Positions 27,117-30,096 of a stretch of DNA of 45,852 nt are shown here, one piece after another. The notes under the pieces were generated by a model. The model had not been told where the DNA came from. It saw only the letters and a list, made by a program, of their open reading frames with translations, and searched no databases. The position numbers were made by a program, and so were the translations under genes. This DNA is from an uncultured Saprospiraceae bacterium (lineage in GTDB: Bacteria > Bacteroidota > Bacteroidia > Chitinophagales > Saprospiraceae). The number at the start of each line of letters is the position of its first letter. Position 1 is the first letter of the stretch. Location: the NCBI GenBank assembly GCA_964645475.1, contig CAZYAC010000001.1:1-45852 (forward strand). Reading direction: 5' to 3'.

Positions 27117-27359
27117 TTAGTTTTCGACACGCTCGATATAATTGGTTATTGCTTCAACTGTCATGAAGTTTTCTATGGTCATATCTTGTGGAGCTACCTT
27201 AAATTTATATTTTTCTTCTACAAACTGTATTAGTCGCATCATTCCCATGGATTCTACCAATCCACTACCTAATAAATCATCTGTTGGTGCAATTTCTAGT
27301 TCAGACTGCCCACTGTGCAACTCTTCTTTGATGAAATTAATAATCGTTTGATTTTTCAT
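27117..27359 (-). CDS. Free-standing carrier protein (DltC-like aminoacyl/acyl carrier)
   Basis: 80 aa. LLGSGLVESMGMMRLIQFVEEKY parallels the DltC GLLDSFGTVELL phosphopantetheine site (here a Ser in VES-M). It lies 6 nt upstream of the NRPS. Confidence 0.75.
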   Translation of the reverse strand: MKNQTIINFIKEELHSGQSELEIAPTDDLLGSGLVESMGMMRLIQFVEEKYKFKVAPQDMTIENFMTVEAITNYIERVEN

Positions 27360-27385
27360 TATTTTGCCTTGTTGTTTTTCTTTGA

Positions 27386-28948
27386 TTATCTTATTTGAAG
27401 TTGTTCTTTTAATGCTGATCGTTTTACTTTACCCGAACCTGTTCTGGGAAAAGATGCCACAAAGGTAATTTTCTCTGGAATAGCATAAACTGGTAATTTA
27501 GTTTTTAAAAATAGTATCAATGCTTCCTCCTTAATATCCATACCAGACCGCAAAATAATCACCGCTTCTAATTTCAAATTTTCCTCTTTTTCCTTTACCG
27601 CTAAAACGACCGCTTCTTCTACTACATCATGTGATACTAGCTTTGCTTCTATCGAGCCTAACTCAATACGATATCCACGGATTTTAACTTGGTAATCTTT
27701 TCGACCTAAAAAATGCAAAACATGATCTGCATCTAAACGAACTAAATCACCAGTCCGATAAAAGATATCATCTATATTTGCACTGTTTTTTCTTCGATAA
27801 AACGACTGTTCAGTTAGTGCTGGTTGCTGCCAATATCCTTTCATCATCGTAGCACTTCGCACACATAACTCTCCCACTCCAGTTTTTAATTCTTCCTCAT
27901 TTTCATCGAGGACAATGCTCGCGGTATTTTTCCAAACCTTACCTAGAGGAATACCCTCTTCACCAACTGGTGGACTAGGGATATTGTAATACGTACATTG
28001 ATTTAATTCTGTTGGACCGTAGATATTACTAAACTTGGCATGGCTCCAAAGTTCCATCAATTGACGTAAATATTTAGGTGGAAATGCCTCTCCTGCATAA
28101 AAAACCCACCGTAAGCTATGCATGTTTTTTTCTTCCAATGATCCATTTTGGAGCATTTGAATTAAGGCTAAGGGGACTGAATACCAAACCGTTATTTTTT
28201 CTTTTTCTATTAGCTGACTCAAACTCGCTGGCAAGACAATATGAGCATCAGAAGCAATGACGGTACAACCTCCTACAAAAGGCGCGGTAAAATATCCAAG
28301 GGTAGAAATATCAAAATAAATGGGTGCATGGTTTCCAAAAACATCATTTTCGTTTAACCCATAAAGATCTGCCGTCAAGCGAGCATACGCTAGACCACTG
28401 GCATGGGTATGCATGATTCCTTTGGGATTTCCAGTAGAACCAGAAGTGTAAATAATGTAGGCAATATCATTTTCCAAAACAGGAAAAGGCAAGGTAAGTA
28501 TTGTTGGTTGTTCTTCTAATTGCTCCCATAAAAAACTAGGAATATTACCAGCTTCTTTCACCCCTATTATGGCATCTAAATCTACCTTCGATTCAATGAT
28601 ATTTTGAATATTCCTTCTTTGTGCATTATTGGTAATTAAAATTTTAATCCCACAATCATTGATAAGAAAACGAGTTCTCTCAATCGGTACTTTGGGATCG
28701 AGCGGAACATAAATGGCTCCCGCTTGCATGATCCCATACATTGCAATTGCGGTCTCTAAACTTCTATTTAAATAAATTCCAATTCGATCTCCTTTTTCTA
28801 TTCCAACTTGATGGAGCAAATTAGCCAACTGGTTCATTTTTACATTTATCTCGCTAAAAGTCAACGACTTAGCACCAAATCGAAATGCTTCTCGATTGGG
28901 AAATTGCTTGGCAGAATTTGAAATAGTATGTGGCAATAAATAAATCAC
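27386..28948 (-). CDS. Free-standing NRPS-type adenylating enzyme (DltA-like amino acid--carrier protein ligase)
   Basis: YIIYTSGSTGNPKG, FDISTLGY (an Asp235 equivalent is present, so an amino-acid substrate is likely), NIYGPTE, YRTGDLV, GRKDYQVKIRGYRIELGSIE and GSGKVKR. Hand-derived specificity residues D-I-L-Y-F-A-I-Q-C-K match no code I recognise. Confidence 0.8.
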   Translation of the reverse strand: MIYLLPHTISNSAKQFPNREAFRFGAKSLTFSEINVKMNQLANLLHQVGIEKGDRIGIYLNRSLETAIAMYGIMQAGAIYVPLDPKVPIERTRFLINDCGIKILITNNAQRRNIQNIIESKVDLDAIIGVKEAGNIPSFLWEQLEEQPTILTLPFPVLENDIAYIIYTSGSTGNPKGIMHTHASGLAYARLTADLYGLNENDVFGNHAPIYFDISTLGYFTAPFVGGCTVIASDAHIVLPASLSQLIEKEKITVWYSVPLALIQMLQNGSLEEKNMHSLRWVFYAGEAFPPKYLRQLMELWSHAKFSNIYGPTELNQCTYYNIPSPPVGEEGIPLGKVWKNTASIVLDENEEELKTGVGELCVRSATMMKGYWQQPALTEQSFYRRKNSANIDDIFYRTGDLVRLDADHVLHFLGRKDYQVKIRGYRIELGSIEAKLVSHDVVEEAVVLAVKEKEENLKLEAVIILRSGMDIKEEALILFLKTKLPVYAIPEKITFVASFPRTGSGKVKRSALKEQLQIR

Positions 28949-30096
28949 AAGCCTAATAATTTTGCAATAATGTTACGTTGTATATCCGAAGTCCCTGCAT
29001 ATAAAATACCTCCTACAGAATCACGAAAATCTCGATCTACCCCTGTATCTGTTAAATAGCTAATGCCACCGAATGTACGCATTGCATCAAGGCTCGATTG
29101 TAAAAACGACTCACTCAAACTCAATTTTAACATAGCTGATTCCAACATAGCGGTTTCACCGTTTTGCTTTAACCATGCTGTTTTATACAATAATAACCTC
29201 GCCGTTTCTAAGCGCAATTTCATCTCCACGATCCGATTAGAAACAGATTGAAATTTACTGATTGATTGATCGTATTGTTTACGTTCTTTGGCAAAATTTA
29301 TCGTGTTTTCTAACTGTCGCTCCATTGCTCCTAATTGACTGGCTAAGATACAACAGCGATCATATTCTAAGGAATGATTAAGGATACTAAATCCTAGGCC
29401 TTCGCTGCCAAGGATATTTTCATGCGGAATTAAACAATCTTTAAATTCCAATGCTCCAATAGGAATAGAACGCATCCCCATTTTAGATTTTCTTTCACTT
29501 CGTTGAAATCCTGGCGTATCTTTGTCCACCAAAAAAGCAGAAACGCCCCATTTTCCTAATTCAGGTTTAGCATTGGCAAACACCAAGACAAAATCACAAA
29601 TTGGAGCCAAGGTGATAAGATGTTTTTTACCATTGAGTAAATAGCCATCTGATTGTTTTATGGCCGTCATTTCCATGCTAAAGATATCTGATCCCGCGTT
29701 GGGTTCCGTCAAAGCATGGCAGCCAATTAACTGTCCTTTAGCCATCGGAACGAGATATTTTTGTTTCTGTGTTTCATTACCAAAATGCAGTATTGGAGTT
29801 TGTACCGTCCACATCTGTGCATTGAGTCCAAAGGCTAGTCCATTATCTTCACAGCCATATCCAAAGCCTTCCATTGCTAGCAAGGCTCTCATAAAATCGA
29901 CTTTTTCAAAATCGCCACCATAGGGTTGGGTGACGGCAAGAGACTGAATACCGAACTGTGCACATTTCTGCCATAACGCTATTGGAAATGTTTCTGTTTT
30001 ATCTCTTTCTAGGACATGGATATTAAGTTCGTTCTTTGCAAAAGAAATAACTTCCTCTTTAAATTCCATATAATCCTCAGGCCAAGAAAAATCCAT
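28945..30096 (-). CDS. Acyl-CoA dehydrogenase-family flavoprotein (probable acyl/aminoacyl-S-carrier-protein dehydrogenase)
   Basis: CHALTEPNAGSD and the ACAD N/M/C domain order. C-terminal YAGTSDIQRNIIAK has a variant of the catalytic-base region (usually YEG; here Y-A-G). 4-nt overlap with the ligase gene. Confidence 0.75.
   Translation of the reverse strand: MDFSWPEDYMEFKEEVISFAKNELNIHVLERDKTETFPIALWQKCAQFGIQSLAVTQPYGGDFEKVDFMRALLAMEGFGYGCEDNGLAFGLNAQMWTVQTPILHFGNETQKQKYLVPMAKGQLIGCHALTEPNAGSDIFSMEMTAIKQSDGYLLNGKKHLITLAPICDFVLVFANAKPELGKWGVSAFLVDKDTPGFQRSERKSKMGMRSIPIGALEFKDCLIPHENILGSEGLGFSILNHSLEYDRCCILASQLGAMERQLENTINFAKERKQYDQSISKFQSVSNRIVEMKLRLETARLLLYKTAWLKQNGETAMLESAMLKLSLSESFLQSSLDAMRTFGGISYLTDTGVDRDFRDSVGGILYAGTSDIQRNIIAKLLGL

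What the first reader, a model, noticed from the sequence alone, without database searches (positions are those of the whole stretch)
27117..30096. DltA/DltC-like ligase-carrier pair coupled to an acyl-CoA-dehydrogenase homologue at the head of the operon
This is a three-gene cassette with a 4-nt overlap and a 26-nt gap. It comprises an ACAD-family flavoprotein, a 520-aa free-standing A enzyme that keeps the Asp235 equivalent (FDISTLG, so an amino-acid substrate is likely), and an 80-aa carrier with a DltC-like GLVESMG site.

The same gene triad is known for carrier-tethered oxidation. One example is prolyl-S-PCP to pyrrolyl-2-carboxyl-S-PCP (PltF/PltL/PltE type). ACAD homologues also act in aminomalonyl-ACP and dehydro-acyl starter-unit pathways. 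The hand-derived specificity residues (D-I-L-Y-F-A-I-Q-C-K) match no code I recognise. The ACAD carries Y-A-G where many ACADs have the catalytic Y-E-G. The predicted product is an oxidised aminoacyl starter handed to the C domain of NRPS1.
Basis: partly seen in the sequence, partly recalled or inferred. Interest (0 to 1): 0.6.

Follow-up and report, generated by a model that had tools for sequence, protein, structure and literature searches.

The report
Proline-loading and ring-oxidising starter cassette
Three tightly packed genes most likely load proline onto a small carrier protein and oxidise its ring there to start a short non-ribosomal peptide. This is a known kind of cassette, here in an unstudied, widespread Bacteroidota gene cluster that looks built for metal binding and uptake.

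Summary
On the minus strand lie a 383-aa ACAD-family flavoprotein, a 520-aa free-standing adenylating (A) enzyme overlapping it by 4 nt, and an 80-aa carrier after a 26-nt gap. The motifs and the pocket code DILYFAIQCK are as stated.

The Pro-to-pyrrole (PltF/PltL/PltE-type) reading is supported; "DltA/DltC-like" describes only the architecture.

- **Flavoprotein.** Its best solved relatives are the three prolyl-carrier oxidases AnaB, Bmp3 and PigA. In a tree it groups with carrier-linked ACADs, apart from its genome's housekeeping ACADs.
- **Y-A-G.** This is normal for the group, whose base sits elsewhere. That base is Asp246 here and Glu in all references.
- **Pocket code.** It is a variant of the prolyl code (AnaC DLFYLALVCK; clade member DILYLALVCK).
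- **Synteny.** In related loci ACAD-A-carrier-NRPS1 is kept in 69/69, 67/68 and 58/60, usually with HupE/UreJ, NRPS2 and a TonB receptor.
- **Ring-size switch.** Gly at pocket position 301 goes with a lysine-cyclodeaminase-like gene in 29/29 loci; Ala or Ser goes without it in 17/17, across six independent tree pairs. This suggests pipecolate- and proline-loading versions. The window is the proline type.

Whether oxidation gives pyrroline or pyrrole is open. The scan noted this cassette before in other genomes.

The parts
28945..30096 (-). ACAD-family flavoprotein (383 aa), predicted prolyl-S-carrier oxidase
   Evidence: Pfam finds Acyl-CoA_dh_N, _M and _1. NCBIfam: PigA 394.5 bits and RedW 328 bits, both below their equivalog cut-offs; the next family scores 264. 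PDB: AnaB 4irn 391 bits, Bmp3 6cxt_B 278, PigA 5zw0 275. In the tree it groups with carrier-linked ACADs at 100/99 support.
29359..29361 (-). Codon of Asp246, at the position of the catalytic Glu of AnaB and Bmp3
   Evidence: The ungapped alignment to AnaB and Bmp3 places D246 under the Glu of W-E-R. A motif census finds Asp in about 104 of 107 clade members. All cassettes outside Bacteroidota have Glu. The codon was checked.
27386..28948 (-). Free-standing adenylating (A) enzyme (520 aa), predicted L-proline:carrier ligase
   Evidence: TIGR01733 amino-acid adenylation domain scores 353 bits, above its cut-off of 317. PltF 6o6e_B scores 242 bits against DltA 3fcc at 177. Code is DILYFAIQCK. 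Overall identity to AnaC is 41%.
28094..28096 (-). Codon of Ala285 (GrsA position 301), the pocket residue that tracks the cyclodeaminase gene across the family
   Evidence: Gly here goes with the cyclodeaminase present in 29/29 loci; Ala or Ser goes with it absent in 17/17. Six of six independent pairs agree. It is the only A-enzyme column that co-varies in all pairs.
27117..27359 (-). 80-aa carrier protein; phosphopantetheine attaches at Ser37 (codon 27249-27251)
   Evidence: PP-binding, E 1.3e-5. Weak PDB matches include the Bmp1 carrier 6cxt_A, PigG and PltL. It aligns with the PigG ortholog and other cassette carriers at the conserved Ser.
25773..27065 (-). Condensation domain of NRPS1, the predicted acceptor of the oxidised starter
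   Evidence: Condensation domain, E 3e-59. HHLITDA motif at residue 143. The closest solved domains are starter C domains: RzmA-Cs 7c1k, CDA C1 and SrfAA Cs. It follows the carrier in 58/60 loci.
22920..27110 (-). NRPS1 (C - A with embedded PP-loop domain - T), first elongation module; its A code DLTKIGEVCK is Asn-like
Evidence: Pfam; code. The PP-loop insert is present in 25/46 related loci.
30097..30336 (.). Divergent intergenic region between the cassette operon and the ABC-HupE-NRPS2 operon
   Evidence: ORF map. The same divergent layout is seen in relatives.

Best explanation
This is a type-II thiotemplated cassette for a cyclic imino acid, in its proline version.

1. The 520-aa A enzyme activates L-proline with ATP and loads it on Ser37-phosphopantetheine of the 80-aa carrier.
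2. The FAD-dependent ACAD-family enzyme removes the C2 proton with Asp246 as base and passes hydride to FAD. This oxidises the ring while it hangs on the carrier. The product is either a pyrroline-carboxyl thioester (two electrons, as with AnaB) or pyrrole-2-carboxyl (four electrons, as with PltE, RedW, PigA and Bmp3).
3. The starter-type C domain of NRPS1 condenses this unit with the Asn-like residue of module 1.
4. The divergently encoded C-A-T-TE NRPS2 adds the last residue and releases the product.

What is shown: gene identities, family placement, the pocket code, conserved synteny, and the pocket/cyclodeaminase covariation. What is inferred: proline as substrate, the chemistry, the oxidation state, and the hand-over to the C domain.
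For: - **ACAD placement.** Its top three solved relatives are AnaB, Bmp3 and PigA. 6cxt is identified as Bmp3:Bmp1 in PMC10849742. Its best NCBIfam models are PigA and RedW. The tree puts it with AnaB, a PigA ortholog and four other carrier-linked ACADs at 100/99 support, apart from three own-genome housekeeping ACADs.
- **A enzyme.** The code DILYFAIQCK compares with AnaC DLFYLALVCK, the PigI ortholog DLFYIAWVCK, Brasilonema DLLYLALVCK and clade member Neolewinella persica DILYLALVCK.
- **Ring-size marker.** Ala301 together with no lysine-cyclodeaminase-like gene marks the smaller-ring type. No such gene was found in the window or its 78%-complete genome, nor in two Ala-type isolate genomes.
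- **Synteny.** A follows the ACAD in 69/69 loci, the carrier follows in 67/68, and the NRPS1 C domain follows in 58/60. The cassette recurs in four other phyla.
- **C domain.** It has HHxxxD and is closest to solved starter C domains.
- **Priming.** Three Sfp-sized PPTase ORFs lie in the genome.
Against: - No biochemistry exists for any member of this clade.
- The catalytic Glu that PMC10849742 calls essential in AnaB and Bmp3 is Asp here. Asp is shorter and untested in this family.
- Pocket position 330 is Gln, against Val in every reference prolyl enzyme. A modified proline cannot be excluded.
- The PigA and RedW models score below their equivalog cut-offs.
- The branching order among AnaB-like, PigA-like and this clade is unresolved, so the oxidation state cannot be read from the tree.
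- No ACAD column changes with the inferred ring size. Either one oxidase handles both rings, or the ring-size inference is wrong.
Confidence: 0.72

Rival explanations
1. The window's A enzyme loads L-pipecolate, or another cyclic or substituted imino acid such as hydroxyproline, rather than proline. The ACAD then oxidises that ring.
For: About two thirds of the family carry a cyclodeaminase gene. It is much closer to solved lysine cyclodeaminase (287 bits) than to ornithine cyclodeaminase (115 bits). The ACAD shows no residue change between the two types. Gln330 is unlike the reference prolyl pockets.
Against: The window has Ala301. Ala or Ser at 301 goes with absence of the cyclodeaminase in 17/17 loci, and the two traits change together in 6/6 independent pairs. 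No cyclodeaminase was found in the window's genome. Two Ala-type isolates lack it genome-wide. Ala-type clade members include the near-canonical prolyl code DILYLALVCK. No hydroxylase gene lies in the cluster.
Confidence: 0.13
2. The ACAD homologue is not a ring dehydrogenase on the carrier. It could be catalytically impaired because of the Glu-to-Asp change. It could act as an N-oxygenase like ChmG. Or it could be an ordinary acyl-CoA dehydrogenase.
For: Asp replaces the catalytic Glu. ChmG shows that ACAD-fold enzymes in such cassettes can do other chemistry (PMC10849742).
Against: A carboxylate is retained, and the Asp is fixed across about 100 clade members under conserved synteny. That speaks for function. 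ChmG has Met at this site and is only distantly related to RedW, at 24% identity. The window's enzyme is 46% identical to AnaB, against 29-31% to its genome's housekeeping ACADs. Only one ACAD is in the cluster. From my own knowledge, nitroalkane oxidase uses Asp as base in this fold.
Confidence: 0.07
3. A DltA/DltC-like system aminoacylates the capsule polysaccharide made by the downstream Wza/Wzc/Wzy genes, rather than starting a peptide.
For: The layout is a free A enzyme plus a small carrier. The cassette and NRPS1 lie directly upstream of GT1-Wza, Wzc and sialic-acid genes on the same strand. The same adjacency occurs in a Maribacter contig and in several Saprospiraceae.
Against: DltA models score 244-249 bits against cut-offs of 476-560, and DltC scores 22 against 68. 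No DltB or DltD-type gene is in the window. A Wza match lies within about 11 kb downstream in only 8 of the 80 loci, and a GT1 gene follows NRPS1 in only 15/44. HupE is kept in 44/48 and NRPS2 in 43/48. The carrier is always followed by a C domain.
Confidence: 0.04

Closest known systems
AnaC / AnaD / AnaB (anatoxin-a starter, Oscillatoria/Microcoleus)
   Same: Same three proteins. The ACAD is 46% identical to AnaB and the A enzyme 41% identical to AnaC, in each case the highest figure among the references tested. The gene order ACAD - A - carrier is the same. Like AnaB, the ACAD lacks the MCAD-type Y-E-G base.
   Different: AnaB has Glu at the base position, where the window has Asp246. The AnaC code is DLFYLALVCK, with Val330 where the window has Gln. 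In the anatoxin pathway the starter goes to a PKS (AnaE); here it goes to an NRPS starter-type C domain. AnaB stops at a pyrroline; the oxidation state here is unknown.
PltF / PltL / PltE, RedM / RedO / RedW, PigI / PigG / PigA, Bmp4 / Bmp1 / Bmp3 (pyrrole-2-carboxyl-S-carrier formation)
   Same: Same logic and protein families. PigA and Bmp3 are the second and third best solved relatives. PltF is the best free-standing solved relative of the A enzyme. PigG, PltL and the Bmp1 carrier are among the carrier's weak matches.
   Different: The ACAD is only 39% identical to a PigA ortholog. The PigA and RedW models score below their equivalog cut-offs. Those pathways pass the pyrrole to ketosynthases, halogenases or acyltransferases, not to a C domain. 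They have Glu, not Asp, as base.
ChmJ / ChmI / ChmH+ChmG of chalkophomycin (Streptomyces copper-binding metabolite; PMC10849742)
   Same: A prolyl-carrier oxidation cassette that serves a metal-binding non-ribosomal product. This matches the metal-uptake context here: HupE/UreJ, a TonB-dependent receptor and an ABC exporter.
   Different: Chalkophomycin needs a second ACAD-fold N-oxygenase (ChmG), and a hydrolase frees the N-hydroxypyrrole acid from its carrier. Here there is one ACAD, no hydrolase, and direct hand-over to a C domain is inferred.
DltA / DltC (D-alanylation of teichoic acids)
   Same: A free-standing adenylating enzyme plus a carrier of about 80 aa.
   Different: The family models score far below their cut-offs. 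There is no DltB or DltD, an ACAD partner is present, and an NRPS C domain follows.

Membership tests
Thiotemplated prolyl-carrier oxidation cassette (PltF/L/E, AnaC/D/B type) | Free-standing A enzyme with Asp235 and Lys517 and a prolyl-type pocket (D-[LI]-x-Y-x-A-x-V-C-K in the references) | tested here: met
   The window's code is DILYFAIQCK. References: AnaC DLFYLALVCK, PigI ortholog DLFYIAWVCK, Brasilonema DLLYLALVCK, clade member DILYLALVCK. The code is identical to the references at 5-6 of 10 positions, and the other differences are between hydrophobic residues. The exception is Gln330, where the references have Val.
Thiotemplated prolyl-carrier oxidation cassette (PltF/L/E, AnaC/D/B type) | Small stand-alone carrier protein with the phosphopantetheine serine | tested here: met
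   80 aa, PP-binding at E 1.3e-5, Ser37 in GLVESMG. It aligns at the Ser with the PigG ortholog and other cassette carriers.
Thiotemplated prolyl-carrier oxidation cassette (PltF/L/E, AnaC/D/B type) | ACAD-fold flavoprotein that groups with the characterised prolyl-carrier oxidases rather than with fatty-acyl-CoA dehydrogenases | tested here: met
   PDB ranks AnaB, then Bmp3, then PigA, then generic ACADs. In the tree the carrier-linked group has 100/99 support against own-genome paralogs.
Thiotemplated prolyl-carrier oxidation cassette (PltF/L/E, AnaC/D/B type) | Catalytic glutamate at the AnaB Glu244 position (W-E-R) | tested here: inconclusive
   The window has Asp246 (Y-D-R). A carboxylate is kept, but it is one methylene shorter. 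Asp is found in about 104/107 clade members and Glu in all cassettes outside Bacteroidota.
Thiotemplated prolyl-carrier oxidation cassette (PltF/L/E, AnaC/D/B type) | The three genes are adjacent and co-inherited | tested here: met
   69/69 and 67/68 related loci. The same holds in four other phyla.
Thiotemplated prolyl-carrier oxidation cassette (PltF/L/E, AnaC/D/B type) | Demonstrated loading of L-Pro and a -2 or -4 Da oxidation on the carrier | not testable with these tools
   This needs in vitro reconstitution with intact-protein or Ppant-ejection mass spectrometry.
PigA / RedW equivalogs (NCBIfam NF053553, NF045652) | Score at or above the curated equivalog cut-off | tested here: not met
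   394.5 bits against a cut-off of 500, and 328.1 against 650. It is a relative, not an ortholog of either.
DltA / DltC D-alanylation system | DltA and DltC models at or above their cut-offs, with DltB and DltD partners nearby | tested here: not met
   DltA scores 244-249 bits against 476-560, and DltC 22 against 68. No MBOAT or DltD-type gene appears among the window's ORFs.
MCAD/SCAD-type acyl-CoA dehydrogenase | Catalytic Glu in the Y-E-G motif near the C terminus | tested here: not met
   The window has Y-A-G. Two own-genome paralogs keep Y-E-G.

The most novel reading that the evidence does not exclude
The family is a natural two-state system. One conserved Asp-base oxidase would serve both prolyl- and pipecolyl-S-carriers, and the ring would be selected by a single Gly/Ala switch at pocket position 301 together with gain or loss of a lysine cyclodeaminase. 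The resulting cyclic imine or heteroaromatic 2-carbonyl starter, next to the thioamide that NRPS1's embedded PP-loop domain may install, would form an N,S-chelating unit. That would be methanobactin-like chemistry made by an NRPS, in a copper- or nickel-binding peptide taken up through the TonB receptor and the HupE/UreJ protein.
Probability: 0.2. Interest if true: 0.75.

Novelty: new member of a known kind. Interest (0 to 1): 0.42.

Why it matters
The cassette itself is textbook type-II NRPS logic. What is new is where it sits: an uncharacterised cluster family with over 190 loci, mostly marine and soil Bacteroidota, whose transport genes point to a metal-binding peptide.

Two features are directly testable and useful:
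- **A natural ring-size switch.** One pocket residue (Gly or Ala at position 301) tracks the presence of a lysine-cyclodeaminase-like gene through at least six independent changes. That is a clean candidate determinant for proline versus pipecolate selection in adenylation enzymes.
- **Asp as base.** An aspartate sits where all studied prolyl-carrier oxidases use a glutamate said to be essential.

Cultured carriers exist, for example Neolewinella persica DSM 23188, Hyunsoonleella jejuensis DSM 21035 and Dokdonia pacifica DSM 25597. The product can therefore be sought.

Tried and rejected
- **Code strings in the literature.** I searched for recalled prolyl specificity codes; there were no hits. 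I derived reference codes from fetched loci instead.
- **Fetching Bmp3.** A degenerate DNA pattern built to fetch a Bmp3 locus found nothing. PltE and RedW sequences could not be obtained, so the tree holds AnaB and a PigA ortholog as the only references tied to characterised enzymes.
- **ACAD or carrier covariation.** I looked for ACAD or carrier residues that co-vary with the Gly/Ala301 type. None was consistent across the independent pairs.
- **Lysine versus ornithine cyclodeaminase.** I looked for sequence rules separating the two. The structural paper gives none, and SpLCD accepts both substrates. The lysine assignment therefore rests on similarity and on the pocket covariation.
- **Promoters and terminators.** Counts did not exceed the shuffled expectation, and no terminator-like site lies on the minus strand within the triad. 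This says nothing either way.
- **Capsule link.** The idea that the cassette belongs to the capsule operon was rejected for the cassette, because the adjacency is lineage-limited.
- **Earlier publication.** I looked for published descriptions of this cluster family and found none.
- **Jobs not run.** I ran no structure or complex prediction. An enzyme-carrier pair is a poor use of that test, and I could not have measured active-site geometry from its output.
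Full report
**1. Observation**

The three minus-strand ORFs are exactly as reported.
- ACAD homologue: 30096-28945, 383 aa.
- A enzyme: 28948-27386, 520 aa. Its GTG start overlaps the ACAD stop in GTGA.
- Carrier: 27359-27117, 80 aa, after a 26-nt gap.
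- NRPS1 begins 6 nt after the carrier's stop.

Pfam confirms the three ACAD domains, AMP-binding plus AMP-binding_C, and PP-binding. FDISTLG, GLVESMG (Ser37) and LYAGTSD are present. I re-derived the pocket residues against my recalled GrsA numbering and transferred the ten positions to reference A enzymes in MAFFT alignments. The code DILYFAIQCK is correct.

**2. What the flavoprotein is**

Its three best solved relatives are the three prolyl-carrier oxidases in the PDB:
- AnaB (4irn): 391 bits.
- Bmp3 (6cxt_B): 278 bits. PMC10849742 identifies 6CXT as the Bmp3 crystal structure.
- PigA (5zw0): 275 bits.

Generic ACADs follow from 249 bits down.

The best NCBIfam models are PigA (394.5 bits, cut-off 500) and RedW (328, cut-off 650); the next family scores 264. 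The protein is therefore a relative of these enzymes, not an ortholog of either.

For a tree I fetched references from genomes:
- An anaB-anaC-anaD-anaE locus from Microcoleus. Its ACAD scores 844 bits to 4irn.
- A PigA ortholog from a complete pig cluster in Pseudoalteromonas xiamenensis.
- Four ACADs at 40-47% identity from an alphaproteobacterium, a betaproteobacterium, a cyanobacterium and a Streptomyces. Each lies beside an A enzyme and a carrier gene.

All of these group with the window's clade at 100/99 support. They are separate from three housekeeping ACAD paralogs of the window's own genome (paralogs). The order among the sub-groups is unresolved. Identity to the window's ACAD is 46% for AnaB, 39% for the PigA ortholog and 29-31% for the paralogs.

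The ACAD does not cluster with ordinary fatty-acyl-CoA dehydrogenases.

**3. Active site**

Every carrier-linked ACAD examined has Y/F-[A/S]-G there, while two own-genome paralogs keep Y-E-G.

The group's base lies on another helix, in the W/Y-E-R motif. PMC10849742 calls this glutamate conserved and essential in AnaB and Bmp3.

At that position the window has Asp246 (LEYDRC; ungapped alignment). Asp occurs in about 104 of 107 close relatives and Glu in three. All non-Bacteroidota cassettes have Glu, and so do the basal cyanobacterial and acidobacterial members of the window's own clade. Glu to Asp is thus a derived trait of the Bacteroidota lineage.

A carboxylate is retained and is fixed under conserved synteny, so I read the enzyme as active. 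No Asp-base enzyme of this family has been tested.

**4. The A enzyme and its substrate**

The enzyme passes the amino-acid adenylation model: TIGR01733 scores 353 bits against a cut-off of 317. It fails both DltA models: 244-249 bits against 476-560. Its best free-standing solved relative is PltF at 242 bits; DltA structures score about 177.

| Source | Code |
|---|---|
| AnaC ortholog | DLFYLALVCK |
| PigI ortholog | DLFYIAWVCK |
| Brasilonema cassette | DLLYLALVCK |
| S. microflavus cassette | DLFYLALVCK |
| Neolewinella persica (window's clade) | DILYLALVCK |
| Window | DILYFAIQCK |

The window's code is a variant of this prolyl pocket. Gln330 is a clade signature, present in 60 of 71 members.

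**5. Family context and a ring-size switch**

A scan of species-representative genomes gave 193 related loci, of which 80 were kept. Most are Saprospiraceae, Lewinellaceae, Flavobacteriaceae and Cytophagales. A few are Acidobacteriota and one is a cyanobacterium. Only 4 of 400 evenly sampled Bacteroidota species carry the gene.

Counts among loci with enough flanking sequence:

| Feature | Loci |
|---|---|
| A enzyme follows the ACAD | 69/69 |
| Carrier follows | 67/68 |
| NRPS1 C domain follows | 58/60 |
| HupE/UreJ_2 nearby | 44/48 |
| NRPS2 nearby | 43/48 |
| TonB-dependent receptor nearby | 35/48 |
| ABC exporter nearby | 20/48 |
| PP-loop insert in NRPS1 | 25/46 |
| GT1 gene after NRPS1 | 15/44 |

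Capsule export genes are found in only a few lineages. A Wza match lies within about 11 kb downstream in 8 of the 80 loci. The cassette therefore belongs to the NRPS and transport cluster, and its position ahead of the capsule genes in this window is lineage-specific.

Many loci carry an OCD-family gene, often directly upstream of the ACAD. It is far closer to solved lysine cyclodeaminase (5gzi 287 bits, 5yu0 285) than to ornithine cyclodeaminase (1u7h 115).

Its presence tracks pocket position 301 perfectly:
- Gly301 with the cyclodeaminase present: 29/29 loci.
- Ala or Ser at 301 with it absent: 17/17 loci.

On an ACAD tree the two traits change together in 6 of 6 independent pairs on well-supported branches (sign test p = 0.031). 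Position 301 is the only A-enzyme column that co-varies in all pairs.

Whole-genome searches agree. Two Ala-type isolates have no such gene anywhere, and two Gly-type isolates have it at 59% identity.

The simplest reading is that a Gly pocket plus a cyclodeaminase loads the six-membered L-pipecolate, and an Ala pocket loads L-proline from the cell's pool. The window has Ala285 (GrsA position 301), and no cyclodeaminase was found in the window or in its 78%-complete genome. It is the proline type.

Caveats:
- SpLCD also converts ornithine to proline, and no sequence rule separates the two activities.
- The ACAD shows no co-varying residue.

**6. Hand-over**

NRPS1's C domain has HHLITDA. Its closest solved relatives include the starter C domains RzmA-Cs 7c1k, CDA C1 and SrfAA Cs. 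This fits acceptance of a non-peptidyl acyl unit from a free carrier. Three Sfp-sized PPTase ORFs lie in the genome.

**7. Oxidation state**

This stays open. AnaB, the closest characterised enzyme, stops at a pyrroline (my knowledge of Mann et al. 2011, cited in PMC10849742). PltE, RedW and Bmp3 go on to the pyrrole. If the same oxidase also serves pipecolyl carriers, a shared two-electron step giving a cyclic imine or enamine would be the common chemistry. I put the two outcomes for this window at roughly even odds.

**8. Comparison and novelty**

The cassette is a new member of a known kind. Its closest relative is AnaC/AnaD/AnaB, and it works like PltF/PltL/PltE. It differs in four ways:
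- Asp rather than Glu as the base.
- Gln at pocket position 330.
- Delivery to an NRPS starter-type C domain.
- A metal-uptake context that recalls chalkophomycin.

I found no published description of the cluster family. The scan itself has noted this cassette several times in other genomes. Those notes reached similar readings: proline or pipecolate as substrate, AnaB as the closest enzyme, and a probable Cu/Ni-binding peptide.

Noticed in passing
L009:8908-9993 and the matching gene in about 40 of loci L015-L094: A lysine-cyclodeaminase-like gene sits next to the ACAD in many related clusters. It co-varies perfectly with Gly at A-enzyme pocket position 301. The window lacks both.
   Followed up: yes
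L070, L074, L078, L086 (Dokdonia and relatives): A third pocket type, DPQFLSIQCK (Ser301, Pro236, Gln239), occurs without the cyclodeaminase. It may mark a third starter substrate in the same cluster family.
   Followed up: no
window 40352-42595 and 37428-38710: In most relatives the TonB-dependent receptor lies directly beside the ACAD or NRPS1. Here it lies about 10 kb away. An ECF sigma factor and a cupin-domain protein that may be its anti-sigma partner sit next to NRPS2, and this pair is also present in L016 and L026.
   Followed up: partly
window 20758-22908: The GT1 glycosyltransferase that follows NRPS1 as a separate gene in relatives (L008, L009) is read here as one 716-aa ORF fused to Wza. 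In a Maribacter contig GT1 and Wza are separate genes.
   Followed up: no
L098 (Pseudohalocynthiibacter plasmid pRR4-35_2): This is the nearest outgroup cassette: HupE/UreJ - carrier - ACAD - methyltransferase - A enzyme (code DIFFIGSMCK), on a conjugative Rhodobacterales plasmid next to polysaccharide genes. The HupE link therefore extends beyond Bacteroidota.
   Followed up: partly
L096:6210-7671 (P. xiamenensis pig cluster): The pigI ortholog is annotated as two ORFs of 420 and 65 aa. This suggests a frameshift or a sequencing error in that record.
   Followed up: no
window 22920-27110, NRPS1 residues about 900-1300: The PP-loop insert in NRPS1's A domain is present in only 25 of 46 related loci. 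The window and its relative L016 have it, while the equally close relative L015 does not.
   Followed up: partly
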